Source of the DNA: Bacteroidota bacterium
GTDB taxonomy: Bacteria > CLD3 > SB21
Direction of reading: 5' to 3'
Assembly (NCBI GenBank): GCA_037445875.1
Contig: JBBIJR010000003.1
Coordinates: forward strand, 13,109 to 77,108
DNA length: 64,000 bases
The notes under the pieces were generated by a model. It was given only the letters and a program-made list of their open reading frames with translations, made no database searches and had not been told where the DNA came from. The position numbers were made by a program, and so were the translations under genes. Positions 6,780 through 19,033 of this stretch are shown one piece after another (within the stretch, counting starts at the first letter, position 1; each line of letters begins with the position of its first letter).

Positions 6780-8678
6780 CTAGTTTTCGCTCACGACAAT
6801 GATCTTGTCCTCGGGCTCAAAGGTCACGGTGTCCGACTTCCTCGGATTGACCACGATCCCGTAGGCCTTGCCCGGGTCCTCCTCATACCGATGGAGCCGG
6901 TAACCGATGACGGACTCGTTCTTCTGCAATGCGGACTCGGCCACAGTGTAGAAATCCACCGCGACTCCGGTGCGGACGTAGTTGGAGACGGGCTTGATAT
7001 AGATCTCGTTGCCTTCCTCGTCGAACAGGTCGTCGTACACGGCCTTCAGGTCCCGGTTCTCCGACAGCTGGGCCAGCATCAGGCTGGTCAGCTTGTCGCT
7101 GACGATGAAATCGTTCACGCGCGTGACCGTGGCCAGTTCGCGGTTGCGTAGATCGAGCATTTCGCTCACGATATTGACCGGACGGCCGCTGCGGTCGATC
7201 ATGTCGCGCAGGTGGAGCAGGGTGATCAGCGTGAGGGAATCCGCTTCCTGGGGAGGAATATCGTCGTAACACAGCAGGACGACGTTCTGGAAGTCGAAGA
7301 TGCCGAGTTCCTCCAGGATCTCCCGGTCTGTGGTGTCGGCCCTTCGGAACGTGACGGTTTGTCTGTTGAGATGCGTTTTCAGCCGCTCGACGGCTTCGCC
7401 GACGGCTTCCGAGCGGGCGACAACGACCGCTTCCGAACCGGGCGTCACGTAGTCGTCGAGGTTCATGATAATGGACGGGGCTTTGTGGTTCCAGCCCAGG
7501 AGCAGCGTACGTTCCTTGCGCGGGGAAGGGGGTGTTCCGCTGGTGATAGCGTCGCGCCGGATTTCGGGCGGTGGTCCTCCGGAAAGCCGGACCGTATCGT
7601 CGTCCTCCGATATGGCGATCACCGAGTCGCCGGACTCGACCTTCGTATCGGGCGCAGGGTTCAGTACGACGGCTCCGTTCTTTCGCTGAAGGCCCATGAT
7701 CGCGGAGTCTTCGTAACCGAGCACGGCCTCGCGGTACGTCTTGCCGGCCAGCGCGGGTTCCTGCTGGAAGTAGATCTCCACGCCTTCGAAATCGAGCAAT
7801 TCCGAATACACCACGCTGAGGCCGCTGTGGCGGCACGTCTGGACGGTGATCCGGGAGATCAGGTCGTCCGACATCAGGACGCAAAGTTCATCCTTGCCCA
7901 CCATCTGGGCCACCGGTAGGTTCTCCGGATGCTGGATTTCGGCCACGATGTGGTACTTTTCTTTCTTGCGTCGAGGATTGTTCACGAGTGCGAGGATCGA
8001 CTTGATGACCTGCGCATCGGCGTTCTCGTCCTCCGGGGATAGGATGATGATCGACCGGGCCGCATTGGGATTGGCGATATGGAGGTGGTCCATGTCGATG
8101 GCCGTACCGCTGCGGCAGATGACGCGTGTATTGCGCGTGTCCGGGATTTTGAGGCGCAGTTCCTCCTCCATTTCCACCTTGTCCCGGTCGGCGAGGATCA
8201 CGATGACCGCGTTGCGCCGGTTGCTGTTGGCCACGATCAGCTCGCCGATGATGGAAAAGATCTTCGACGACCAGCTGAGGATCAGCGTGTGGTCGGTTTC
8301 CACGACGAACGAGCGTCCTTTGCGGAGTTCATCGAGTTTGGTTTCGATGGCGGAGGTGACGATACCGATGAGGATGCTGACGAGGAAGATGCCGACTATG
8401 GTCATGAGCAGCATGAGCAGGCGCGGCCCCCAGGCCTCGTCTCCCGACAGGTTGCCCGCATCGAGCGTGCGCATGAGGCTCTTCCAGAACAGCTGGAGAA
8501 AATTGGCCTCCTCGGTCTCCTCGGTGATGCCCAGGACGGTGGCGATACCGGCCACGATGGCGGTGGCGGCCAGCGAAATGATGGCCAGCCACTTGATCAG
8601 GGCGACCGTTCCGGCGGACATCGTGTTGTCGAACCGGTAGCGCCATCGCTGGCTCAGGGAGATGCGGGACTCCTCCAT
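6780..8678 (-). CDS. CASTOR/POLLUX-related putative ion channel: two N-terminal TM helices plus tandem RCK/TrkA-like domains
   Basis: ORF 6780..8711. Start chosen at the second ATG (MEESR), which has a GGAGGAG RBS 9 nt upstream. TM segments LIKWLAIISLAATAIVAGIATVLGI and LLMLLMTIVGIFLVSILIGIVTSAI. The cytosolic part is RCK-like. Confidence 0.65.
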   Translation of the reverse strand: MEESRISLSQRWRYRFDNTMSAGTVALIKWLAIISLAATAIVAGIATVLGITEETEEANFLQLFWKSLMRTLDAGNLSGDEAWGPRLLMLLMTIVGIFLVSILIGIVTSAIETKLDELRKGRSFVVETDHTLILSWSSKIFSIIGELIVANSNRRNAVIVILADRDKVEMEEELRLKIPDTRNTRVICRSGTAIDMDHLHIANPNAARSIIILSPEDENADAQVIKSILALVNNPRRKKEKYHIVAEIQHPENLPVAQMVGKDELCVLMSDDLISRITVQTCRHSGLSVVYSELLDFEGVEIYFQQEPALAGKTYREAVLGYEDSAIMGLQRKNGAVVLNPAPDTKVESGDSVIAISEDDDTVRLSGGPPPEIRRDAITSGTPPSPRKERTLLLGWNHKAPSIIMNLDDYVTPGSEAVVVARSEAVGEAVERLKTHLNRQTVTFRRADTTDREILEELGIFDFQNVVLLCYDDIPPQEADSLTLITLLHLRDMIDRSGRPVNIVSEMLDLRNRELATVTRVNDFIVSDKLTSLMLAQLSENRDLKAVYDDLFDEEGNEIYIKPVSNYVRTGVAVDFYTVAESALQKNESVIGYRLHRYEEDPGKAYGIVVNPRKSDTVTFEPEDKIIVVSEN

Positions 8679-8946
8679 GGTTAGGCTCCTCCTCGATATG
8701 GATGCGGTCATCGGAACGACCCGCCCGGCTCAATGGCCGCGGGCAGGTTCATAGACAGGCGGTTACGCGGACGATCCTGCGAGGCACGAATCGTCACGAC
8801 GGAGAAAGATGAGGTATTTTCGTGTAAACGGCAATGGGAAATGTATCGGAGAATCCCTCGACACGAGAGCCGAAAGGAGAGATTGACACGCGGAGGTATC
8901 ATAAAAAGAGTAGTTTGCCCGATTCTTGAAATCGTCCTAGCTTCGG

Positions 8947-9461
8947 ATGGAGAGTCTCGAAGATGAAAGGCAATTTGACACATTCCAGATTGAAAGGGAA
9001 ATCACTTCGCCGGACAGCAACCGCAAGATCATCGCCGAATTGGCCAAGTACGCCCTGTTCTTCGAACAGGAAAGAGGACGTTTCCCCAAGACGCTGATCT
9101 TCGCGACCAATGATACTCAGCACGTCTCTCATGCCGATACGATTGTTCAAATGTGCAAGGAGACCTTTCATCGGGGAGATGATTTTGTCATGAAGATTAC
9201 GGGCAATCCCAACGTGGACCGTCCGCTCGAAAAACTGCGCCGATGGATCGTGTCTTCAAAGACAAATCTCTGACGGAAGAGCAACATATCTGGATCGACT
9301 ATATCAAAGAATTCCAGATTCAGAATCTGACCATTGAAGAACAGGATTTGAAAGACGCTCCGATCTTTGAGCGGCATGGCGGGCTTGCAAAATGTAAGAA
9401 AGTTTTCAAGACCGACTACAAGTCTCTGATACAACAAATCAATACAGCAATTGCTGCGTAA
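8947..9461 (+). pseudogene. hsdR: Remnant of a type I restriction enzyme R subunit (hsdR): a helicase C-terminal fragment and an EcoEI_R_C-like C-terminal fragment in two overlapping frames
   Basis: ORFs 8947..9273 (..KTLIFATNDTQHVSHADTIV..KITGNPNVDRPLEKLRRW) and 9243..9461 (EcoEI_R_C-like DRVFKDKSLTEEQHIWIDYIKEF..). The roughly 700 aa of N-terminal nuclease/helicase core are absent, and the two pieces are in different frames. Confidence 0.5.
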
Positions 9462-9471
9462 TTGTTGCGTG

Positions 9472-9500
9472 GATAGAGAACCCCATCGGGGTTCTCTATC
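9472..9500. repeat. Perfect 13-bp-stem palindrome (gatagagaacccc atc ggggttctctatc) just after the hsdR remnant; a REP-like CCCC/GGGG family member or terminator
   Basis: Self-complementarity read directly from the sequence. The outer gtggat/atccac arms extend the stem. Confidence 0.6.
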
Positions 9501-9526
9501 TGTAGTCATCCACGAATTAGAAGACA

Positions 9527-10036
9527 TTTAAACCCCGTAGGGGTTTTATTTCAAGGCCAAATACCTATTCACCAATCTACATCCACATCGTATTTTGTCC
9601 GAAGGGACGCGCCAATCTGATTCCGCAAGAGCATGAGGAGGAATTGTACAAGTACATCACGGGCATCGTAAGAAATAGAAACCAAAACTACTTGCGATCA
9701 ACGGCATGCCGGATCATGTTCATATCCTTCTCGGGCTTAAACCCGACATAGCCGTGTCCGATCTGGTGCGCGATGTCAAACATTTTTCGAGCACGTTTAT
9801 CAATGATAAAAAGTGGCTTTGCGGCAAGTTCAACTGGCAGGAAGGATTCGGTGCGTTTTCATATTCGCGATCTCAAATCAGTTCGGTCGCCGAATACATA
9901 AAGAACCAGAAAGAACATCATCGGAAACGGTCGTTTCGAGAGGAATGCTTTGGGATCCTGAATGAATCTGGGGTCGAATATGATGAGAAATATCTCTTCG
10001 AATGGATTGAATGACATAAAACCCCTACGGGGTTTG
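9527..10036 (+). mobile_element. Decayed IS200/IS605-family (RAYT-like) element: Y1 transposase pseudogene flanked by oppositely oriented hairpins
   Basis: aaaccccgtaggggttt at about 9530..9546 and its reverse complement aaacccctacggggttt at about 10018..10035 bracket the tnpA remnant. Confidence 0.6.
9560..10014 (+). pseudogene. tnpA: IS200-like / REP-associated tyrosine transposase (Y1 HUH transposase), N-terminally truncated and frameshifted
   Basis: A frame with no start codon reads ..YIHIVFCPKGRANLIPQEHEEELYKYITGIVRNRNQ. The frame then shifts near 9677 into ORF 9706..10014 (KLLAINGMPDHVHILL HUH motif..; catalytic Tyr context AEYIKNQKEHH). The whole is collinear with Salmonella IS200 TnpA. 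Confidence 0.7.
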
Positions 10037-10067
10037 TGATCCTATGACTTCGATGCTTTACAGACAT

Positions 10068-10086
10068 GAAACCCCTCCGGGGTTTC
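10068..10086. repeat. REP-like palindrome copy (gaaacccctccggggtttc)
   Basis: Family CCCC-N3-GGGG, same orientation as the 10018 copy. Confidence 0.5.
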
Positions 10087-10157
10087 AGGCCATGGTGTAT
10101 AATGAAAGTTCAAACACGAAATCATTCGTGAGTTCAATCACTTACCATCAGATGTAT

Positions 10158-10176
10158 CAAAACGCCGTAGGCGTTT
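10158..10176. repeat. REP-like palindrome copy (aaaacgccgtaggcgtttt), diverged
   Basis: CGCC-GTA-GGCG variant of the same hairpin, in the orientation of the 9530 copy. Confidence 0.45.
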
Positions 10177-10211
10177 TATGTCTGTAACAGCAACAAAAAG
10201 GAACTCAGCGT

Positions 10212-10228
10212 AAACCCCGTAGGGGTTT
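10212..10228. repeat. REP-like palindrome copy (aaaccccgtaggggttt) abutting the hsdM fragment
   Basis: Identical to the 9530 copy. It sits immediately 5' of the hsdM N-terminal coding remnant. Confidence 0.55.
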
Positions 10229-10552
10229 CATGTAAAGGAGACCCTGTCCGACATCGTCAATAAACTCTGGGGATTCTGCCACACCCTGCGCCATGACGGC
10301 GTGGATTACGGCGACTACATCGAACAGCTTACATATCTGCTGTTTCTCAAAATGGCCGATGAACGCGAAGTTCATGTGCCCAAAGGCTACGATTGGAACA
10401 GCCTGAAGAAACTTTCCGGCACGGAACTCACCGACCACTATTCGGAAATCCTCCGCAAGCTCCGGGAAAGAGGCATCCTTGGAAAGATATTCACTCAAGC
10501 CATGCCGCGTATCAATAATCCGGCACGAGTCCCGGACAAACGCCAAAAATAG
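10226..10552 (+). pseudogene. hsdM: N-terminal fragment (about 100 aa) of type I restriction-modification methyltransferase subunit HsdM
   Basis: ..IVNKLWGFCHTLRHDGVDYGDYIEQLTYLLFLKMADERE.. is the HsdM_N signature. The frame is open from just after the palindrome (ORF 10301..10552 uses an internal GTG). It stops after about 100 aa, whereas full HsdM is about 500 aa. Confidence 0.6.
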
Positions 10553-10772
10553 CCTTTCGCAGTCGCAGGTAGTCTCAAGTAGTCTCAAAATTTGAAGTGC
10601 CCTGTGCCGGGCCTTTATATTGCCTACGTTGATTTTTTAACGAGGCAAAATAAAAGCGATGGAAACTCCGGTCATAGAAAACGAAGAAGAATACGAAAAC
10701 TTGGATGTCGCCGAAGAAACACTTAAAACAAAAAGACCAATGAACATTGTTAACTGCTCATTGGTCAGTGTG

Positions 10773-11148
10773 CGGTGGAGACGACGGGAATTGAACCCGT
10801 GTCCGAGAATAAGCCACCTGAGATTTCTACGTGCGTAGCCCGCTTTGGGTTCTCGCTCCGGTATCGAAAGCGGACGAAAAGCGCCGGAGCCAGCTCGATG
10901 TCCCGACGAATCGGGTTCTCACCTCAGGCCTCCGAGCATTGGCCTTCGGCTAGTCTGTTTGAAATGACGCCCTGACCAACCCCGACAGACGAGAGTCAAC
11001 CAGAACGGACTGCAGAGTGTTACCTCTTAGGCAGCCAACGCGTAAGCGTTGTTGTTGTTTGTTTTTTCCCCGCTTGTTTAACGAGCACGCAGAGAAGCTC
11101 GGCACGCCGTCCCAGGACGCCTAGACCCGTCGAATCCAGTTCGTCCCC
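10773..11148 (-). ncRNA. ssrA: tmRNA (ssrA), about 376 nt, CCA not encoded
   Basis: Reverse complement gives 5' GGGGACGAACUGGAUUCGACGGG.. and 3' ..GGACACGGGUUCAAUUCCCGUCGUCUCCACC. Both are close matches to E. coli tmRNA ends (G3:U70 alanine identity pair preserved). Internal tag reading frame ..AAC AAC AAC AAC GCU UAC GCG UUG GCU GCC UAA (NNNNAYALAA stop). Confidence 0.85.
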
Positions 11149-11230: not shown

Positions 11231-11280
11231 TGGGGCCTTGGATATATTGGCATCCGATTTCTTCATCGTTCAAGGAATTC

Positions 11281-12183
11281 ATGAACACGATCAGGGTCAT
11301 CGGCGTGCCGTTGGATCTGGGCGCCGGCCGGCGGGGCACGGACATGGGACCGTCCGCGATCCGCAATGCGGGGCTCTCCGAACGCCTGCTGGAACTCGGT
11401 TACACGATCCGGGATACGGGGGACATCTTCACCAAGAACCCCGAAGCGCTCGACGTGGGGGACGAAAAACTCCGATACCTGAGCGCCATCCTGAAAGGCG
11501 TGTCCACGCTGGCCCGAACGGTCGAAGAAAGCCTGGCGGCGGGTGAGTTTCCTCTCGTGCTGGGCGGGGACCACTCGATCGCCATCGGCACGATCGCCGG
11601 TCTGGCGGCCCATTTCCAATCGAAGCCGGTGGGTGTGATCTGGGTGGACGCCCACGGGGACATGAACACGCCCGAAACATCCCCGACAGGGAATGTGCAC
11701 GGCATGCCGCTCGCGGCCGCTCTGGGCATGGGCCACCCCAAACTCACGTCGGTGGGCGGGGATCGTCCGAAGATCAAAGCGGCCCACACGGTCATCGTGG
11801 GCGCCCGCACGCTGGACGGCGGTGAGGTCGAACACATTCGCCGGCTGGGGGTCACGGTCTTTACCATGCGCGACATCGACGACCGGGGCATACACGACGT
11901 CATCGACGAGAGCATACGGATAGCCGGAAACGACACGGCCGGCGTTCACGTGAGTTTCGACGTGGACAGTATCGATCCCTCGGTTGCACCGGGTGTGGGA
12001 ACGGCGGTCCTCGGCGGTCTCACGTATCGCGAAGCCCACTATATTATGGAATCGCTTCACAACAGCCAGCGGGTCGTCTCCATGGACCTGGTGGAAACGA
12101 ATCCAACGCTGGACGTCCGCAATGCAACGGCAAGGATCGGCGTGGACCTGGTCTGTTCGCTGTTCGGAAAAAAGATACTCTGA
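11281..12183 (+). CDS. rocF: Arginase (ureohydrolase family)
   Basis: ORF 11227..12183. ATG at 11281 (MNTIRVIGVPLDLGAG) with an AAGGA RBS. GGDHSIAIGT, DAHGDMNT and SFDVDSIDP are the Mn-binding motifs. Confidence 0.9.
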   Translation: MNTIRVIGVPLDLGAGRRGTDMGPSAIRNAGLSERLLELGYTIRDTGDIFTKNPEALDVGDEKLRYLSAILKGVSTLARTVEESLAAGEFPLVLGGDHSIAIGTIAGLAAHFQSKPVGVIWVDAHGDMNTPETSPTGNVHGMPLAAALGMGHPKLTSVGGDRPKIKAAHTVIVGARTLDGGEVEHIRRLGVTVFTMRDIDDRGIHDVIDESIRIAGNDTAGVHVSFDVDSIDPSVAPGVGTAVLGGLTYREAHYIMESLHNSQRVVSMDLVETNPTLDVRNATARIGVDLVCSLFGKKIL

Positions 12184-12198
12184 GTGGTTCGAGGCATT

Positions 12199-14868
12199 AT
12201 GAACATCAAGAAGCTGACCTCCCTCGTGGCCTGTGCCGTCCTCCTCGCCGCCGGATCCGTCCTGCGCGGCCAGGACGTCCGCTTTCTGGGCGAGAGCAAC
12301 GGATACGACGAGCAATTGCTTGCGTCTTACCTGGGGCTTTCCGAACAACGGCTCCTGCTGGACCTGGCCGGCGAATGGACGGTCACGATCGAAGGCAAGT
12401 CGCGCGCGGTCCGCGTGCCCAGCAACTACGAATACGAGGGACGCGTCGTGTACCGTCGCACGTTCACACCCGGGCCGGAATTCCGGAACCGCCATTTCCG
12501 GCTCACGTGCTTCGGCATCAATTTCAAGGCGGACCTCCGGATCAACGGAGAATTCATAGGCAATCAGAACGGCGGCTACCAGCGGACGGATTACGACTTG
12601 AACGAAGGGCTCATTCTCATCGAGGAGCCCAACACGATCGAGATCACGGTGTACGGCGACCTCAATGTCAGCAGTTCGATCCCCAAGCGGTCGAGCATGC
12701 TGCTGCCGCGGGCGTACGCAGGGATCTTTCGAGAGATCTATCTCGAGGCCATGCCGAAGACCACCATCGACCGGTATACGGTTAACTACACGCCGTCAGT
12801 GGACCTCAAGCGATGCGATTTCACGGTCGGTCTGCAGATCCGCAATTACGACTTCTCCTATCAGCGCAAAGACACGGCCGCTTTGCCTCATCCGGACGCC
12901 GGCCGGAAGACCTGGCGCTACGTCGTCGAACTCTATAACGATGAGGACCCCGCACCGATCTATACCAATCGCTACAAACGATATCGATACACGTGGGAAG
13001 CACCCAGGATGCCGGAACTGAACGACGAAGCGGTCCTCGAGTTTGAGCACTACACAACGGCCGAGGCGCGTTTTTCCATCGAAAAACCAAGCTACTGGCA
13101 CACCGAAAGTCCCTACCGGTACCGACTCGTGCTCTCTCTGTATCACGGGGAAGAGCTGGTAGACCGGATTCAACAATGGATCGGATTGGTCCGCATCGAG
13201 ATCAGCGAGCAGTATGTTCTGGTGAACAACCGGCCCCTGACGGTACGCGGTCTGGTGTACTATGAAGACTATCCCGGCTGCGGGAACACCGTGCCGTTTG
13301 CGATCATGGAGGAAGACGTTCAGCGGATGAAAAAGCTCGGCGCGAACGTGATCTACTTCAAACATCATCCGCCCCATCCGTACTTCCTCGAGCTCTGCAA
13401 CCGCTACGGGCTGCTGGTCCTCTATGAGTCTCCCATCACGATCCTCACCGAACGGACCGTGACGGACGAGGCGTACCTGGAGGATTTCAAGGACTACCTG
13501 CGCAACATGGTCCTGCATGACCGTTTGAACGTCTGCATTCTTGCATGGGGCCTGGGGGCCGGATTGGACCAGGATCTGCCCGCCGCCCAGACGTTTGTCA
13601 AACAGATATCCCAGGTTGTACGGTCCGCCGACGCACGGCCCATTTTCTGCAATCTCGTGTTTGGAAGCGGCCTCCGAATGGACGATGTGGACATGTTAAA
13701 CGTCGACCTCCGGACCAACAACACCCTGACGGCCAATCAGTTCCTGATGAAGGTCCACAACATGTACCGCGGGCGACCAATCGTCTGCACGTACGGGACC
13801 CAGATCTTCTCCAACAATCAGAACGGATACAGCGACCCCATGTCCACGAAATTCCAGGCGCGATTCCTGGTGGACCTGTACAAGAAGATCGGGGAACTGA
13901 AACTGACGGGCGGCATCATTCGTTCGTACAACGATGTGCGGGTCGCCCGCTCGCACATGTATGCCAATCCGAACGCGGACCCGACCGTGCTCACCAGCGG
14001 CCTGGTAACGTTTGATCGGAGAGAGCGGTTCGCCTATGAATACGCCCGGGCCCTGTATACGGAGGACCGCCTCGAACCGATTGTGATGGGTACGTACGAA
14101 GTTCAGTATCCCAAGACGTACCCCATCGTGGGTCTGTTTCTTGTTGTGCTGTTTGTGACCGTGTACCGGCAGAACGACAAGTTCAAAAGCAGCATTTTTC
14201 GATCGGTCAGCAAGGTGGAGAATTTTTTCAGCGATGTGCGCGACAACCGGGTCATCTCCCTGTGGCCGGCCGCGGCCAGCCTGGTGCTGAGTTCACTGGC
14301 CCTGGCCATGCTGTTCTCGATGTTGTTCTTTGAACTCAAGCGCAGCCAGGTGTTCGACGAGTTCATCGGCAGTTTGATTCCCTCGGCGGGTCTCAAGCAT
14401 TGGCTCGACCGGATGGCCTGGCAGCCCGAGGTGTGTGTGTTCGTCTGGTCGCTGGTCATCATGGCCAAGCTGGTGGGTGTGGCGGTGCTGATCTGGGTGC
14501 TGGCGTTCGCTTTCAGGACGCGGGTGACGTTTCAGCAATCGCTCCTGGCGGCGTTCTGGAGCGCATCGCATTTTGTCTTCCTGATACCGCTGGTCATTGT
14601 GTTTCACCGCTTGCTGCGTTACGATGGGCTCCTCGTGACGGTCGTGCTGATCACGATCTGGATGCTGGTGTGGTACGCCTGGCGTCTCGTTCGGATCTTC
14701 CGGATCATGTACGATGCCACCTGGCTGCGGACGGCCGCCATAGTCGGCGGCCTGTGGGGCCTGTGGCTGCTGTTCATCGGCATGCAGTACGCCCAACGAT
14801 ACGACTTCTACGGCACGCAGAGCTATATTCAACATCTGTACGAGAGCGGCAATTACAGCAACGAATGA
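12199..14868 (+). CDS. Secreted GH2-like (beta-galactosidase/glucuronidase fold) domain protein fused to a C-terminal polytopic membrane domain (about 6 TM)
   Basis: ORF 12184..14868. ATG at 12199, signal peptide MNIKKLTSLVACAVLLAAGSVLRG. GH2 TIM-barrel entry motif KKLGANVIYFKHHPPHPYFLELCNRYGLLVLYESP. The expected WSxGNE acid/base motif reads ILAWGLGAG. C-terminal hydrophobic helices from about aa 630. Confidence 0.6.
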   Translation: MNIKKLTSLVACAVLLAAGSVLRGQDVRFLGESNGYDEQLLASYLGLSEQRLLLDLAGEWTVTIEGKSRAVRVPSNYEYEGRVVYRRTFTPGPEFRNRHFRLTCFGINFKADLRINGEFIGNQNGGYQRTDYDLNEGLILIEEPNTIEITVYGDLNVSSSIPKRSSMLLPRAYAGIFREIYLEAMPKTTIDRYTVNYTPSVDLKRCDFTVGLQIRNYDFSYQRKDTAALPHPDAGRKTWRYVVELYNDEDPAPIYTNRYKRYRYTWEAPRMPELNDEAVLEFEHYTTAEARFSIEKPSYWHTESPYRYRLVLSLYHGEELVDRIQQWIGLVRIEISEQYVLVNNRPLTVRGLVYYEDYPGCGNTVPFAIMEEDVQRMKKLGANVIYFKHHPPHPYFLELCNRYGLLVLYESPITILTERTVTDEAYLEDFKDYLRNMVLHDRLNVCILAWGLGAGLDQDLPAAQTFVKQISQVVRSADARPIFCNLVFGSGLRMDDVDMLNVDLRTNNTLTANQFLMKVHNMYRGRPIVCTYGTQIFSNNQNGYSDPMSTKFQARFLVDLYKKIGELKLTGGIIRSYNDVRVARSHMYANPNADPTVLTSGLVTFDRRERFAYEYARALYTEDRLEPIVMGTYEVQYPKTYPIVGLFLVVLFVTVYRQNDKFKSSIFRSVSKVENFFSDVRDNRVISLWPAAASLVLSSLALAMLFSMLFFELKRSQVFDEFIGSLIPSAGLKHWLDRMAWQPEVCVFVWSLVIMAKLVGVAVLIWVLAFAFRTRVTFQQSLLAAFWSASHFVFLIPLVIVFHRLLRYDGLLVTVVLITIWMLVWYAWRLVRIFRIMYDATWLRTAAIVGGLWGLWLLFIGMQYAQRYDFYGTQSYIQHLYESGNYSNE

Positions 14869-15461
14869 GAAACCGGCTTAAGTCCGAGGATGTCCTCGAT
14901 CTGTTTCGGCGGAGCGGTGCTCTGCTGGAAGGTCATTTCGTTCTGACGTCCGGCGCCCACAGTCCGCAGTACTTTCAGTGCGCGCGGGTGCTGCAGTATC
15001 CGAACTGGGCACAGTTGTTGTGCAGCGAGATCGGCCTTCATTTCAGCGACCGCAAGATTCACGTCGTGGCCGCCCCGGCCGTCGGAGGCATCCTCGTCGG
15101 CCACGAGGTGGCGCGGACCCTCAACGCCCGGTGCATCTTCGCGGAGCGGGAGGAAGGTGTCATGCGGTTCCGGCGCGGTTTCGAACTGCACCGTGACGAG
15201 AACGTTCTCGTGGTGGAAGACGTCGTAACGACGGGCGGCTCGGTGCTCGAGGTGATGCGGCTCTGCCGCGAAGCGGACGCCAACGTAACGGGCGTCGGGT
15301 TCCTCGTGGACCGCAGCGGCGGAAAGGCCGCCTTCGACGTCCCGGCCTTCTCGCTGCTCAGCCTGGACGCCGTCAAGTACGATCCGCAAGATTGTCCTCT
15401 GTGCCGGGAGGGTAGACTGCCGCCGGTAAAGCCCGGCAGCCGTACCCTGTCGCCGCGGTAA
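14865..15461 (+). CDS. pyrE: Orotate phosphoribosyltransferase
   Basis: Inside ORF 14400..15461. The start ATG overlaps the upstream stop (ATGA). VVEDVVTTGGS is the PRPP-binding motif. Confidence 0.85.
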   Translation: MRNRLKSEDVLDLFRRSGALLEGHFVLTSGAHSPQYFQCARVLQYPNWAQLLCSEIGLHFSDRKIHVVAAPAVGGILVGHEVARTLNARCIFAEREEGVMRFRRGFELHRDENVLVVEDVVTTGGSVLEVMRLCREADANVTGVGFLVDRSGGKAAFDVPAFSLLSLDAVKYDPQDCPLCREGRLPPVKPGSRTLSPR

Positions 15462-15470
15462 AGAGGACCG

Positions 15471-16253
15471 ATGGAGTCCGACTGGACCGTCTGCGTGCTG
15501 GGGAGCGGCAGCAAAGGCAATTGCATTTACGCCCGGGCCGGCAGTACAGAATTCCTGGTGGATGCGGGCTTGAGGTGCGAAGCCCTGGAATCCCGGCTGG
15601 CCGCGATTGGCGTCCACCCGCGACGCATCCGCCACGTGTTCATCACCCACGAACATGCCGATCACATCGATGGATTGCGAGTGTTTTCCCGAAAATACGG
15701 TCCGAGGGTCCACGTCAGCCGCGGAACGTATCTTCACGTGGGCTCGCTGGTGCCCCGTCCCGCCGAGGTCCACGTCTTTGACGGTCCCTACGACCTCGAC
15801 GGCATCGAAGTGCACCCGTTTCCGGTTTCTCACGATGCTGTTGACCCGGTGGGGTTTTCTTTCGTATCTTGCGGCAAGCGGGTCACGGTCGCGACGGACA
15901 TGGGTTTCGTCGGCGCATCGGCGCTGGCGCACCTCAAGGACAGCGACGTTGTGATCCTGGAGTGCAATCACGATTCCGAACGGCTCATGCAGGGGCCGTA
16001 TCCCTTCATTCTGAAAAAGCGCATAGCGGGCCCGACGGGCCATCTGTCCAACCGCCAGGCTGCCGATGCACTGGTCCAGATTGCAAACGGACGTCTGAAA
16101 TACATCTGCCTCGCCCACTTGAGCCAGGAGAACAACACCCCTCATCTGGCGCTTTCGGCCCTGCAAGGCCTCGAGTTGACTCCGAACGGTGAAGGCGGAC
16201 CGGTGCTGGTGCTCACGCATCAGGACCGCTGCAGCGAAGTCTTACACTTTTGA
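15471..16253 (+). CDS. MBL-fold metallo-hydrolase
   Basis: HEHADH metal-binding motif. Beta-lactamase-superfamily architecture. Confidence 0.8.
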   Translation: MESDWTVCVLGSGSKGNCIYARAGSTEFLVDAGLRCEALESRLAAIGVHPRRIRHVFITHEHADHIDGLRVFSRKYGPRVHVSRGTYLHVGSLVPRPAEVHVFDGPYDLDGIEVHPFPVSHDAVDPVGFSFVSCGKRVTVATDMGFVGASALAHLKDSDVVILECNHDSERLMQGPYPFILKKRIAGPTGHLSNRQAADALVQIANGRLKYICLAHLSQENNTPHLALSALQGLELTPNGEGGPVLVLTHQDRCSEVLHF

Positions 16254-16267
16254 CGGGATCGCTTGCC

Positions 16268-18091
16268 ATGCACGACGGCAATTTTCTGGAGCACATCAAT
16301 CTGGAGAAACCGCTTAGCGAGGTGAAGAACCTCATTGAGACGGATGTTCGTGCGGCGAAGACGGACAGCGGATTTCTCACCGATGTGCTGATGAAGTATT
16401 ACCGACAGCCCCTGCCCTTTGATCCGGATCTGTTCCGTCAGATCGACAGCCAGCCCGTCGGTGTCCGGCTGGCCATCCAGAACGACCCGTACTGGAGCCG
16501 GATCGGCCGGTTCGTCCACATTCTGGACTTCAGCGAAAAAGAACGCCTCAAATTCGCCTCCGAGGCCGAGATCGAGAAGATCGCCATCTTTCTGCTTTTC
16601 GAGAAAGACCTCGACGTACTCGATCGTGTGTTCAACAATGCTACGCTGCCGACCAAGGTCCTGCTCGACTACATCAATATTATCAAAGAGCGCGATATCG
16701 ACCGTGAGGACGACAAGATCCTCCGGCTGGCGCTGAAGATATTCAAACGCCGCAGCCGCCGCATCATCAAGGCGCACGACATTCTGCGCCTGGCGAAGAC
16801 CGAGATCCGGGAAGATCCGTTCATTCAGCTGATCACATACGTGTGCGACGAAGACCCGCTCATCCGGGACGCCGCACTGAACGCCGTATCGTCGGTTCCC
16901 CTCGGACTGGTGGCGTCGGTGCTTCAGTCGGACCAGACGGTCGAACGAATTCGCACTTTTCAGCCGGCGATATCGGGCATTGCCGCGTTGGACATCCTGC
17001 ATGTGGCGGTGAAGCACATTCTTCGCATTCACGACACCCATGCCGTAATGGAATCGGGCCAGAACGAAAAGGTCCCGCCCGCCGGGGTCGATCTGTTCGG
17101 GTTGCTAGAATCGCGCAAACTCAGGGAACTCGACCGGTGCGTGGACGATCCCACCAATCTGTTCAATCTGGGCATGCTGGCATTCTGTCACATGGATCCC
17201 AAGGAGGAGGTCCAGAGGAAAGCGAGGGACATCCTGGCGGTCGAAGACATCCTGGAACTGGCCGGGGACGAGTCCACGCCGCGCGAATTGTCCATCGAGA
17301 TTCTGCGGCTCCTCGACCGGCATCCGGACGAAGACGTCAAGGCCCGCGTGCAGGAAATCCGTCTGGCGGAAGCCGAGCGTGTCAATAAGCGCATGAAGGA
17401 ACTCGAGGTGTCCGTAAACGCCTACTTCGACGTCGTCTTTCAGTCCCTCAACTACGCTCGTATCAACGACCAGAAGGAAGCCGTGCAGGTTCTGCGCGGC
17501 GCGTTGAGCTACGTGCAGCAGTTCAGCGAGACGGTGCAGCAAAAAGACCCGGGCACGGTGACCGTAACCCAGGGGTTCCTGCGGAAAGCGATCGAACACT
17601 ACGAGGGCTCGATTAACAATCTGTACATGGACACGAAGCACGAGATGTTCACCGAACTCGAGGAGATTCAGGGCATCGTGCACCACCTGCTCGATCTCAA
17701 GAACTTCAAGTTTGAGGAGGAGAGCGAGCAGTCCCCCCGGGACGTGGACGAGGCGGTGTTGAACAAGGCCGTCATGATCTGGCGATCCAGCATCAGCCAG
17801 TACCTCGGACGCATCAAGGACCTCGAAGAGATGTTACGCCTGAAATGGACGCGTCTCGTGCAGGAAACCGAGCCGGTCAAGAAGCTGGAACAGATCGAAA
17901 GCGAATTGTACGAGGCGTTCGGCGAAATGGAGAACCAGCACAAGGACGATGTGGACTGCAAGCTCAAGATCCCGTGCCGCGAGTGCAAGCGCCGCGGCTG
18001 CGCCTCGGAGCGATTCATGCTGCAGGTGGACTTCCTCATCTCCGAGATCAACGAGAACTTCAGCAAAGCCAATCACCCCGGGCATGTCTGA
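16268..18091 (+). CDS. Hypothetical alpha-helical (HEAT/ARM-like) protein with a C-terminal Cys cluster
   Basis: ORF 16250..18091. I prefer the ATG at 16268 (MHDGNF). No recognisable catalytic motif. The C-terminus has CKLKIPCRECKRRGC. It overlaps the downstream mpg start. Confidence 0.5.
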   Translation: MHDGNFLEHINLEKPLSEVKNLIETDVRAAKTDSGFLTDVLMKYYRQPLPFDPDLFRQIDSQPVGVRLAIQNDPYWSRIGRFVHILDFSEKERLKFASEAEIEKIAIFLLFEKDLDVLDRVFNNATLPTKVLLDYINIIKERDIDREDDKILRLALKIFKRRSRRIIKAHDILRLAKTEIREDPFIQLITYVCDEDPLIRDAALNAVSSVPLGLVASVLQSDQTVERIRTFQPAISGIAALDILHVAVKHILRIHDTHAVMESGQNEKVPPAGVDLFGLLESRKLRELDRCVDDPTNLFNLGMLAFCHMDPKEEVQRKARDILAVEDILELAGDESTPRELSIEILRLLDRHPDEDVKARVQEIRLAEAERVNKRMKELEVSVNAYFDVVFQSLNYARINDQKEAVQVLRGALSYVQQFSETVQQKDPGTVTVTQGFLRKAIEHYEGSINNLYMDTKHEMFTELEEIQGIVHHLLDLKNFKFEEESEQSPRDVDEAVLNKAVMIWRSSISQYLGRIKDLEEMLRLKWTRLVQETEPVKKLEQIESELYEAFGEMENQHKDDVDCKLKIPCRECKRRGCASERFMLQVDFLISEINENFSKANHPGHV

Positions 18092-19013: not shown

Positions 19014-19033
19014 ACCGGCGCGAGGCAGCTGGA

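What the first reader, a model, noticed from the sequence alone, without database searches (positions are those of the whole stretch)
12199..14868. Secreted GH2-like domain with an apparently ablated catalytic motif, fused to a 6-TM membrane domain
The periplasmic part matches the GH2 TIM-barrel entry (KKLGANVIYFKHHPPHPYFLELCNRYGLLVLYESP, which aligns with the N.VRTSHYP...LCDE.G..V..E pattern). Where GH2 enzymes carry the acid/base Glu in W-S-x-G-N-E, this protein has ILAWGLGAG. The chain then continues into five or six hydrophobic helices (IVGLFLVVLFVTVY.., LVLSSLALAMLFSMLFF.., VFVWSLVIMAKLVGVAVLIWVLAFAF.., FVFLIPLVIVF.., LLVTVVLITIWMLVWYAW.., IVGGLWGLWLLFIGM..). A glycosidase-fold pseudoenzyme tethered to a membrane domain suggests a sugar-binding sensor or transporter accessory rather than a hydrolase. 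Its stop overlaps the pyrE start (ATGA), so it is genuinely expressed in an operon.
Basis: partly seen in the sequence, partly recalled or inferred. Interest (0 to 1): 0.55.

Follow-up and report, generated by a model that had tools for sequence, protein, structure and literature searches.

The report
Membrane-anchored dead GH2 glycosidase family
This gene encodes a periplasm-facing protein with the fold of a beta-glucuronidase-type sugar-cutting enzyme that has lost its catalytic residues and is permanently fused to a six-helix membrane domain; it belongs to a large, uncharacterised family, conserved under strong selection, in Ignavibacteria and related uncultured bacteria.

Summary
ORF 12199-14868 (+) encodes 889 aa. 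It has a signal peptide, a three-domain GUS-type GH2 ectodomain and six C-terminal membrane helices, five of them weakly Yip1-like. Pfam places all three GH2 domains above gathering score. The AF2 model has pLDDT 88, and its top Foldseek hits are beta-galacturonidase and beta-glucuronidases (E about 1e-36).

Profile alignment to E. coli GusA shows the active site is gone:
- Acid/base Glu413 becomes Gly455 and Asn412 becomes Ala454.
- Nucleophile Glu504 becomes Thr531.
- The Tyr468/Tyr472 loop is deleted.
- Trp549 becomes Arg575.

None of 81 family genes has Glu at the nucleophile position. In the Ignavibacteria branch the acid/base column is no better conserved than an average barrel column. 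The gene is not decaying: dN/dS is 0.11 overall, 0.07 for the barrel and 0.08 for the membrane domain.

The membrane domain recovers 590 representative proteins. Every listed full-length hit has the same fusion.

Neighbours are housekeeping genes and differ by lineage: arginase/pyrE here, tpiA/smc in Ignavibacteria. No transporter, regulator or sugar-utilisation partner is conserved.

Best reading: a non-hydrolytic, probably glycan-binding envelope protein. The ligand and function are unknown. The sensor or transporter-accessory idea is untested and has no support from gene context.

The parts
12199..14868 (+). Whole gene: 889-aa GH2-like pseudoenzyme fused to a membrane domain (stop TGA 14866-14868)
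   Evidence: ORF list. Pfam. AF2 model pLDDT 88.2. 94%-identical P0001 is called from the same ATG.
12199..12270 (+). N-terminal signal-peptide-like segment (aa 1-24, MNIKKLTSLVACAVLLAAGSVLRG)
   Evidence: Hydropathy peak at 3-24. AF2 helix 2-22. 32 of 38 full-length family members have an N-terminal hydrophobic segment, many followed by A-x-A-like sites. Cleavage is inferred, not tested.
12418..12756 (+). GH2 N-terminal sugar-binding-type beta-sandwich (aa 74-186)
   Evidence: Pfam PF02837, 8e-8, 32.8 bits against cut-off 28. hhalign to GusA.
12760..13188 (+). GH2 immunoglobulin-like beta-sandwich (aa about 188-330)
   Evidence: Pfam PF00703 covers 283-330. AF2 strands run 188-328. A low-confidence loop lies at 228-234.
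13195..14091 (+). GH2 (beta/alpha)8 barrel without catalytic residues (aa 333-631)
   Evidence: Pfam PF02836, 4e-16. Eight barrel strands in the model. Foldseek hits to GUS and beta-galacturonidase. dN/dS 0.07.
13546..13563 (+). Former acid/base motif: WGLGAG in place of W-S-x-G/A-N-E (Ala454, Gly455)
   Evidence: phmmer alignment to 5t98. hhalign to GusA. Translation check. The motif lies just after barrel strand 4, residues 447-451.
13780..13803 (+). Barrel strand 7 and the following loop, IVCTYGTQ. Thr531 sits where the nucleophile Glu should be. Gln535 sits where the Ignavibacteria branch mostly has Glu.
   Evidence: hhalign maps GusA E504 to T531 and D508 to Q535. The model has strand 7 at 528-532. 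0 of 81 family genes have Glu at the 531 column.
13921..13923 (+). Arg575, invariant in the close clade, at the position of GusA Trp549 (barrel strand 8)
   Evidence: Column counts: 15 of 15 Arg in the close clade; Trp in 39 of 66 in the Ignavibacteria branch.
14116..14172 (+). Membrane helix 1 (aa 640-658), predicted to lead from the periplasm into the cytoplasm
   Evidence: AF2 helix 640-658. Hydropathy.
14173..14259 (+). Predicted cytoplasmic juxtamembrane helices with family-invariant Arg668, Phe676 and Asp679 and near-invariant Arg681
   Evidence: Invariant and nearly invariant columns in A1, A2 and A3. The cytoplasmic side is inferred from helix order and the excess of Lys/Arg.
14221..14802 (+). 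Five-helix Yip1-like membrane bundle (aa 675-868, helices 2-6)
   Evidence: Pfam Yip1 scores 21.4-23.4 bits for this protein, below the cut-off of 28.6. 27 of 55 family members match at E<0.01, best 1.8e-7. The membrane-only AF2 model has pLDDT 88.1. dN/dS 0.08.
14865..14868 (+). ATGA: the stop codon of this gene overlaps the start codon of the downstream phosphoribosyltransferase gene (pyrE-like, 14865-15461)
   Evidence: Sequence read. Pribosyltran domain. The same gene order occurs in 12 related MAG loci.
11281..12183 (+). Upstream arginase-family gene. Its stop lies 15 nt before the ATG. It is context, not part of the protein.
   Evidence: Pfam Arginase 1.4e-80. Sequence. Syntenic in 10 related loci.

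Best explanation
The gene encodes an inner-membrane protein of a lineage-specific family. A Sec-type signal exports a roughly 610-residue three-domain module of the beta-glucuronidase (GUS) type of glycoside hydrolase family 2. The chain then crosses the membrane six times: one linking helix followed by a five-helix, distantly Yip1-like bundle. This leaves a conserved Arg/Phe/Asp motif on the predicted cytoplasmic side.

The barrel keeps its fold but not its chemistry. The acid/base Glu, the Asn before it, the nucleophile Glu, the Tyr loop and the Trp platform are all replaced or deleted. The protein therefore most likely does not hydrolyse glycosides.

The remodelled pocket is itself conserved in this clade (His389, Asp503, Gln535, Arg575, Asp594), and the whole protein is under strong purifying selection. 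I therefore infer that the ectodomain acts as a binding module, most plausibly for a periplasmic or envelope glycan. It would be held at the outer face of the cytoplasmic membrane by a membrane domain that has a conserved role of its own, for example docking or organising partner membrane proteins.

Shown: the architecture, the loss of catalytic residues, the selection and the constancy of the fusion. Inferred: ligand binding, topology and the adaptor role. Unknown: the ligand and the cellular process.
For: - Architecture: three GH2 Pfam domains above gathering score. AF2 pLDDT 88.2 and pTM 0.84. The best structural matches are GUS-type GH2 enzymes, E 1e-36 to 1e-33, TM 0.8.
- Catalytic loss: profile-profile alignment (probability 100%, 513 columns) maps GusA N412/E413 to A454/G455, E504 to T531, W549 to R575, D163 to L169 and K568 to T596, with Y468/Y472 falling in a deletion. 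The model's strands 4 (447-451) and 7 (528-532) place these positions where clan GH-A enzymes carry their catalytic Glu.
- Family-wide pattern: 0 of 81 genes have Glu at the nucleophile column. The acid/base column is Glu in 36 of 66 Ignavibacteria-branch genes. That is the 46th percentile of conservation among barrel columns.
- Selection: against the 94%-identical relative, dN/dS is 0.11 overall, 0.07 for the barrel and 0.08 for the membrane domain.
- Constancy of the fusion: the membrane-domain profile finds 590 representatives at E<=1e-3 among 1.84 billion proteins. The 150 listed are 820-950 aa with the domain at the C-terminus, or they are fragments.
- Export: an N-terminal hydrophobic segment is present in 32 of 38 members, and six C-terminal hydrophobic segments is the usual count.
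- Context: the gene sits in housekeeping neighbourhoods in four lineages, with no sugar-utilisation genes.
Against: - No binding partner or ligand is identified.
- I could not inspect the model coordinates, so I do not know whether the pocket is open.
- The clade-specific acidic residues Asp503 (end of strand 6) and Asp594 lie at pocket positions and could in principle form a rewired catalytic pair.
- In the Ignavibacteria branch, 27 of 66 genes keep both the acid/base Glu and a Glu four residues after the canonical nucleophile position. Some family members might therefore retain activity.
- Gene context gives no positive clue to the process.
Confidence: 0.6

Rival explanations
1. It is still an active glycosidase that uses a rewired catalytic centre. 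Candidates are Asp503 and Asp594, or in the Ignavibacteria branch a Asp-Glu pair working by substrate-assisted catalysis on an N-acetylhexosaminide. It would act on a periplasmic or envelope glycan while anchored to the membrane.
For: - Close-clade-specific conserved acidic residues sit at pocket positions: Asp503 at the end of strand 6 and Asp594 at the GusA Asn566 position.
- In the Ignavibacteria branch the residue before the acid/base is Asp in 44 of 66 genes and the acid/base is Glu in 36 of 66. This gives a D-E pair like that of GH20 and GH123 enzymes, which need no enzyme nucleophile. The comparison with GH20 and GH123 comes from my own knowledge.
- A Glu four residues after the canonical nucleophile is present in 49 of 66.
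Against: - In this protein and its clade neither the D-E pair nor the +4 Glu exists. The first is A-G, S-A and similar; the second is Gln or His.
- In the Ignavibacteria branch the acid/base column varies among E, D, Q, G, N and L and is only averagely conserved. That is not the behaviour of a catalytic residue.
- The Tyr loop and the Trp platform of GH2 are also lost in this protein.
Confidence: 0.12
2. It is a transmembrane sugar sensor. Ligand binding to the dead GH2 head would be transmitted through the membrane bundle to a cytoplasmic partner that changes gene expression or enzyme activity.
For: - A family-invariant motif (Arg668, Phe676, Asp679) with near-invariant Arg681 lies on the predicted cytoplasmic side.
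- The high pTM (0.84) of the full-length model suggests a fixed head-to-membrane arrangement.
- Precedent exists for membrane-anchored carbohydrate-sensing modules in RsgI anti-sigma factors (PMC6852018, PMC10328401).
Against: - There is no kinase, anti-sigma, cyclase or other output domain.
- No regulator gene is conserved next to it in four different contexts.
- It is a single conserved gene in housekeeping operons rather than beside regulated sugar-utilisation genes.
Confidence: 0.12
3. It is an accessory or assembly subunit of a membrane transporter or envelope machine. This would be analogous to the Yip1-family protein YknW, which modulates assembly of the YknXYZ ABC exporter. The GH2 head would provide substrate or cell-wall contact.
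For: - There is weak but repeated Yip1 similarity: 27 of 55 members at E<0.01, best 1.8e-7.
- YknW is described as a Yip1-family protein needed for YknXYZ assembly (PMC4887032).
- The membrane domain is as constrained as the barrel (dN/dS 0.08).
Against: - No ABC transporter, membrane-fusion protein or other transporter gene is a conserved neighbour.
- The Yip1 relationship is distant. The membrane-domain profile returned only 590 representatives at E<=1e-3, and all 150 listed belong to this family or are fragments of it, so no ordinary stand-alone Yip1 protein was seen.
Confidence: 0.14
4. It is a decaying gene or an assembly or gene-call artefact that fuses a dead glycosidase to an unrelated membrane protein.
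For: Catalytic residues are missing. One database entry (P0127) is indeed a chimeric call that runs into the SMC gene.
Against: - The reading frame is intact, with dN/dS 0.07-0.11.
- The same architecture occurs in 80 genome loci and hundreds of 50%-identity clusters.
- The AF2 model is confident across both parts.
Confidence: 0.02

Closest known systems
GUS-type glycoside hydrolase family 2 enzymes (E. coli beta-glucuronidase GusA/UidA; Eisenbergiella tayi beta-galacturonidase, PDB 6ncw)
   Same: Both have the same three-domain layout of sugar-binding beta-sandwich, Ig-like sandwich and (beta/alpha)8 barrel. Foldseek TM is about 0.8 and hhalign probability is 100% over 513 columns. Many structural motifs are shared: HPPHPY against SHYP, LCNRYG against LCDxxG, DxRP and xFxD.
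   Different: Here the acid/base Glu, the preceding Asn, the nucleophile Glu, the Tyr468/472 loop, the Trp549 platform and the uronate-recognising Asn/Lys are all changed. The protein is exported and carries a 250-residue polytopic membrane domain, which GUS enzymes lack. The nearest canonical GH2 in the protein search scores 84 bits, against 182 bits or more for every family member.
Yip1 domain family (Pfam PF04893: eukaryotic YIPF Golgi proteins; bacterial members such as Bacillus YknW)
   Same: Both are five-helix membrane bundles preceded by a cytoplasmic segment. hmmscan matches profile positions 9-170 of 173, and about half of the family members match at E<0.01.
   Different: This protein scores below Pfam's gathering cut-off (21-23 bits against 28.6). 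The domain occurs here only as the C-terminal part of a GH2 fusion, with an extra linking helix. No solved structure is available for comparison. The Rab-related or YknXYZ-related partners of known Yip1 proteins are absent from the neighbourhood.
Membrane-tethered glycosidase-fold pseudoenzymes, e.g. alpha- and beta-Klotho (GH1-like domains lacking a catalytic Glu that serve as FGF co-receptors), and the soluble chi-lectins (GH18). This comparison is from my own knowledge and was not tested here.
   Same: A glycoside-hydrolase barrel is kept under selection after losing catalytic carboxylates and is displayed on the non-cytoplasmic side of a membrane.
   Different: The GH family differs (GH2 rather than GH1 or GH18). 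This protein is bacterial, has a polytopic rather than single-pass anchor, and its ligand is unknown.
RsgI-type anti-sigma factors of cellulolytic clostridia, which carry extracellular carbohydrate-binding or GH-like sensing modules (PMC6852018, PMC10328401)
   Same: A bacterial membrane protein exposes a carbohydrate-recognition module outside the cytoplasm.
   Different: RsgI proteins have an N-terminal anti-sigma domain, one membrane helix and a cognate sigI gene beside them. None of these is present here.

Membership tests
Glycoside hydrolase family 2 (CAZy GH2, clan GH-A) | Sugar-binding, Ig-like and (beta/alpha)8 barrel domains recognisable by sequence and fold | tested here: met
   PF02837, PF00703 and PF02836 are all above gathering score. 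Foldseek E is 4.8e-37 to 6ncw. hhalign probability is 100% to GusA.
Glycoside hydrolase family 2 (CAZy GH2, clan GH-A) | Acid/base Glu in the Asn-Glu motif after barrel strand 4 | tested here: not met
   Ala454-Gly455 aligns with GusA Asn412-Glu413 and with the N-E of 5t98. No member of the close clade has Glu there.
Glycoside hydrolase family 2 (CAZy GH2, clan GH-A) | Nucleophile Glu at the end of barrel strand 7 | tested here: not met
   GusA Glu504 aligns with Thr531, and 0 of 81 family genes have Glu there. The alternative pairwise alignment gives Gln535. The model's strand 7 is residues 528-532.
Glycoside hydrolase family 2 (CAZy GH2, clan GH-A) | Measurable retaining glycosidase activity | not testable with these tools
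   This needs an enzyme assay of the purified ectodomain.
Yip1 domain family (Pfam PF04893) | Score at or above the Pfam gathering cut-off (28.6 bits) | tested here: inconclusive
   This protein scores 21.4 bits full-length and 23.4 bits for the domain alone. 27 of 55 family members match at E<0.01, best 1.8e-7. Fragment P0222 reaches 31.5 bits.
Yip1 domain family (Pfam PF04893) | Five membrane helices following a cytoplasmic N-terminal segment | tested here: met
   Helices 2-6 (688-868) follow the predicted cytoplasmic helices 660-681. The topology is predicted, not measured.
Yip1 domain family (Pfam PF04893) | Fold similarity to an experimentally solved Yip1 protein | not testable with these tools
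Glycosidase-fold pseudoenzymes (non-catalytic binding proteins derived from GH folds) | Fold retained, catalytic residues lost, sequence under purifying selection | tested here: met
   dN/dS is 0.07 for the barrel.
Glycosidase-fold pseudoenzymes (non-catalytic binding proteins derived from GH folds) | Demonstrated ligand binding without turnover | not testable with these tools
   This needs binding assays. The only indirect support is conservation of the replacement pocket residues His389, Asp503, Gln535, Arg575 and Asp594 in the close clade.
RsgI-like carbohydrate-sensing anti-sigma factors | Cytoplasmic anti-sigma domain and an adjacent cognate sigma-factor gene | tested here: not met
   No such domain appears in Pfam or NCBIfam scans. 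The neighbours are an arginase, a phosphoribosyltransferase and a metallo-beta-lactamase-fold protein.

The most novel reading that the evidence does not exclude
The family is a lineage-defining envelope component of Ignavibacteria and related uncultured FCB bacteria. In it an ancestral GH2 enzyme lost its nucleophile once, at the origin of the fusion, and was co-opted as the periplasmic ligand-binding head of a prokaryotic Yip1-like membrane module. If so, it would give the first tractable functional context for a bacterial Yip1-type domain as a membrane adaptor coupled to a defined extracytoplasmic binding domain. It would also be a bacterial counterpart of Klotho-type membrane pseudo-glycosidases.
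Probability: 0.25. Interest if true: 0.6.

Novelty: new variant of a known kind. Interest (0 to 1): 0.45.

Why it matters
Public records call these proteins 'hypothetical' or 'glycoside hydrolase family 2 TIM barrel-domain containing protein'. CAZyme surveys of Ignavibacteria-type genomes will therefore count them as beta-galactosidases or beta-glucuronidases, which they almost certainly are not.

The analysis defines a coherent family. It has hundreds of 50%-identity clusters, an invariant architecture and strong constraint, and it is a dead enzyme fused to a poorly understood membrane domain. That makes it a clean target for finding a new envelope function and for learning what bacterial Yip1-like domains do.

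It does not bear on a long-standing open question, and the function remains unknown.

Tried and rejected
- **Catalytic Glu elsewhere.** I listed all acidic residues conserved in the barrel. Most are shared with GusA at non-catalytic positions. Only Asp503 and Asp594 are clade-specific pocket residues. I kept these as a caveat, not as evidence of activity.
- **Glu in the G-x-E-V motif as the nucleophile.** My first multiple alignment suggested that the Ignavibacteria branch keeps the nucleophile. Profile-profile alignment and the model's strand boundaries show that this Glu aligns with GusA Asp508, four residues after the true position.
- **Functional partner from gene context.** I examined four lineage contexts: arginase/pyrE, tpiA/smc, Na/H antiporter/IMPDH and oxidoreductase/purC. 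They share no neighbour.
- **Stand-alone versions of the membrane domain.** Short hits are N-terminally truncated fragments, and one is a chimera with SMC.
- **Literature.** Three full-text searches found no description of a GH2-Yip1 fusion. The 2025 GH2 subfamily paper says proteins with transmembrane domains were filtered out in its secretion-signal analysis, and it does not mention Ignavibacteria.
- **First dN/dS run.** It was wrong because of an indel near the N-terminus. I repeated it on a codon alignment.
- **Structure job on alignment A2.** I reran it with alignment A3.
Full report
**What is there.** The finding sits on one long ORF, GTG 12184 or ATG 12199 to 14868 on the + strand. The ATG lies 15 nt after the stop of an arginase-family gene. 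Gene callers use the same ATG in the 94%-identical metagenomic relative P0001. That gives 889 residues. The stop codon overlaps the start of the next gene as ATGA at 14865-14868. The next gene carries a phosphoribosyltransferase domain.

**GH2 similarity.** The similarity is real and covers the whole ectodomain.
- Pfam finds the sugar-binding domain at residues 74-186, the Ig-like domain at 283-330 and the TIM barrel at 333-614 (E 4e-16), all above their gathering scores.
- NCBIfam gives only sub-threshold matches to beta-galactosidase and beta-glucuronidase equivalogs.
- phmmer against PDB sequences returns 121 GH2 chains, the best at 3.7e-24.
- An AlphaFold2 model built on 35 family sequences is confident, with mean pLDDT 88.2 and pTM 0.84.
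- Its best Foldseek matches are the GH2 beta-galacturonidase 6ncw and many beta-glucuronidases, with E 1e-36 to 1e-33 and target-normalised TM about 0.8.

The head is therefore a GUS-type three-domain GH2 module, not a LacZ-type five-domain one.

**Catalytic residues.** WGLGAG (nt 13546-13563) aligns with WSIGNE of 5t98. To test the rest of the site I took 80 genomic relatives, extracted their genes and aligned them. I then ran a profile-profile alignment against a profile of 55 canonical GH2 proteins plus E. coli LacZ and GusA. Probability was 100% over 513 columns. The mapping is:

| GusA residue | This protein |
|---|---|
| Asn412 | Ala454 |
| Glu413 (acid/base) | Gly455 |
| Glu504 (nucleophile) | Thr531 |
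| Tyr468/Tyr472 loop | deleted |
| Trp549 | Arg575 |
| Asp163 | Leu169 |
| Arg562 | Tyr588 |
| Asn566 | Asp594 |
| Lys568 | Thr596 |

The model places barrel strand 4 at 447-451 and strand 7 at 528-532. These positions are therefore where clan GH-A enzymes carry their two Glu.

A pairwise phmmer alignment to 6ncw instead puts Gln535 opposite the nucleophile. Either way there is no Glu. My first multiple alignment suggested that distant relatives keep the nucleophile in a G-x-E-V motif. The profile alignment shows that this Glu corresponds to GusA Asp508, four residues downstream. I withdrew that reading.

**Family-wide pattern.** None of the 81 genes has Glu at the canonical nucleophile column. 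In the close clade (the window plus 14 MAG loci at 44-59% identity) that column is Leu, Thr, Ile, Ser or Val. In the Ignavibacteria branch (66 loci at about 27% identity) it is Arg or Lys in 52.

The acid/base column is Ala, Gly, Asn, Ser or Asp in the close clade. In the Ignavibacteria branch it is Glu in 36 of 66, Asp in 14 and Gln in 9. That column ranks at the 46th percentile of conservation among barrel columns. A residue doing catalysis would be near-invariant. The simplest reading is that the nucleophile was lost at the origin of the family and the acid/base Glu is a relic that has been decaying since.

I searched for substitute carboxylates. Most conserved acidic residues are shared with GusA at non-catalytic positions. 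Asp503 and Asp594 are clade-specific pocket residues and remain a caveat.

**Not a dying gene.** On a codon alignment with the 94%-identical relative from a JGI metagenome (L083), dN/dS is 0.11 overall. It is 0.07 for the barrel and 0.08 for the membrane domain. An earlier ungapped attempt was invalid. In the close clade the replacement pocket residues are themselves conserved: Arg575 in 15 of 15, Asp594 in 13 of 15, and His389, Asp503 and Gln535 in 12 of 15 each. This is what one expects of a binding site rather than an abandoned one. That step is inference, because I could not inspect the coordinates.

**Membrane part.** Hydropathy and the AF2 helices give an N-terminal signal-like segment (3-24) and six C-terminal membrane helices (640-658, 688-712, 743-771, 778-802, 809-838 and 842-868). 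Thirty-two of 38 full-length relatives have an N-terminal hydrophobic segment, many followed by A-x-A-like sites, and six C-terminal hydrophobic segments is the usual count.

With the head outside, helix order and the Lys/Arg distribution put residues 659-687 in the cytoplasm. That segment holds the family-invariant Arg668, Phe676 and Asp679 and the near-invariant Arg681.

**How wide the family is.**
- A word-indexed search found 39 full-length relatives of 809-905 aa with the same architecture. Canonical GH2 proteins followed only after a large gap: 84 bits, against 182 bits or more for every family member.
- A motif scan of one genome per species found 140 genomes. The 80 kept are almost all Ignavibacteria, Ignavibacteriota or unclassified Bacteroidota MAGs, including an Ignavibacterium album MAG.
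- An exhaustive HMMER search with the membrane-domain profile over 1.84 billion representatives gave 590 hits at E<=1e-3 and 524 at E<=1e-10.
- The 150 listed hits are either 820-950 aa with the domain at the C-terminus or shorter entries. The shorter ones I examined are N-terminal truncations, and one is a chimeric gene call that runs into SMC.

This membrane domain therefore appears to exist only in fusion with the GH2 head. Public names are 'hypothetical protein' or 'glycoside hydrolase family 2 TIM barrel-domain containing protein'. Three literature searches found no description of the fusion. A 2025 subdivision of GH2 filtered out proteins with transmembrane domains in its secretion-signal analysis (PMC12243196).

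**Context.**
- In the close clade the order arginase, this gene, phosphoribosyltransferase, metallo-beta-lactamase-fold protein, a 613-aa protein without Pfam family, methylpurine-DNA glycosylase and ValRS is conserved on one strand in 10-12 loci.
- In the Ignavibacteria branch the gene lies between triose-phosphate isomerase and SMC. In 63 of 66 loci the SMC gene starts a median of 4 nt after it.
- Two more divergent members sit beside a Na/H antiporter and IMP dehydrogenase, and beside an oxidoreductase and SAICAR synthase.

No transporter, regulator, TonB-dependent receptor or other glycan-utilisation gene recurs. The gene behaves like a constitutive, single-copy housekeeping gene. This argues against a nutrient-acquisition glycosidase and gives no support to the sensor or transporter-accessory ideas.

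**Host.** The window's ValRS is 100% identical to an unnamed NCBI protein on an 88.5-kb contig. Relatives at 70-76% identity are unnamed 'bacterium' MAGs. Below 60% the named hits are Calditrichota, KSB1 and similar. The host is an uncultured deep lineage of the FCB group, and its relatives are labelled Bacteroidota in public MAG records.

**Mechanism, with its limits.** Four things are shown: an exported GUS-type GH2 fold, absence of the catalytic machinery, a constant fusion to a conserved polytopic membrane domain, and strong purifying selection on both parts. Three things are inferred: the head binds rather than cleaves a ligand, most plausibly a periplasmic or envelope glycan; the membrane bundle has its own conserved role, possibly docking partner proteins as described for the Yip1-family protein YknW in the YknWXYZ exporter (PMC4887032); and the topology is as predicted. 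The ligand, the partners and the cellular process are unknown.

The rivals, in order, are a transporter or machine accessory (0.14), a rewired active enzyme (0.12), a transmembrane sensor (0.12) and a decaying or artefactual gene (0.02, effectively refuted).

**Comparison and novelty.** By fold the head belongs with GH2. By the family's defining chemistry it fails two of the defining features, so it should not be filed as a GH2 enzyme. It works like the known class of glycosidase-fold pseudoenzymes. The nearest conceptual parallels are membrane-tethered Klotho proteins (from my own knowledge, not tested here) and the carbohydrate-sensing heads of RsgI anti-sigma factors (PMC6852018, PMC10328401). 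It shares neither their GH family nor their membrane or signalling parts.

I rate it a new variant of a known kind. It is an uncharacterised, well-delimited family with a domain combination I could not find described. It is of moderate interest (0.45), mainly to CAZyme annotators and to anyone studying envelope biology of Ignavibacteria or bacterial Yip1-like domains.

Noticed in passing
window 10773-11148 (-), with 8000-10600: A full-length tmRNA gene (154.7 bits) lies next to a lower-GC stretch (0.52-0.54 against about 0.58-0.60). That stretch holds gene fragments: the C-terminal half of an IS200-like Y1 transposase (9706-10014) and an HsdM N-terminal fragment (10301-10552). It looks like the decayed remnant of a mobile island inserted at ssrA.
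   Followed up: partly
window 16250-18091 (+): A 613-aa ORF has no Pfam family; the only match is a sub-threshold HEAT-repeat hit. It is nevertheless conserved in the same position in 11 related MAG loci at 47-64% identity. It is another uncharacterised lineage-specific protein.
   Followed up: no
loci L015-L080 (Ignavibacteria branch), family gene at about 8001-10500 of each: The orthologue is flanked by triose-phosphate isomerase upstream (50 loci) and SMC immediately downstream (63 of 66 loci, median gap 4 nt). A HAD-like phosphatase follows SMC. Database protein P0127 is a chimeric call joining the family gene to SMC.
   Followed up: partly
loci L015-L080, columns equivalent to window residues 454, 455, 531 and 535: In the Ignavibacteria branch the Asn before the acid/base is Asp in 44 of 66. 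The canonical nucleophile position is Arg or Lys in 52 of 66. A Glu four residues later is present in 49 of 66. The D-E pair without an enzyme nucleophile recalls substrate-assisted hexosaminidases, but the columns are too variable to argue for catalysis.
   Followed up: partly
window 19031-21685 (+): The ValRS is 100% identical to an unnamed NCBI protein on an 88.5-kb contig, so the source genome is public. The nearest named relatives, at less than 60% identity, are Calditrichota and KSB1. This points to an unnamed deep FCB-group lineage.
   Followed up: partly
window 11263-12495 (-), 12796-13518 (-), 14853-16220 (-): Long antisense ORFs of 240-455 aa overlap the arginase, the GH2-like gene and the downstream genes. 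Their 'homologues' in related loci are just the antisense of the real genes. They are shadow ORFs of a GC-rich genome, not genes.
   Followed up: partly
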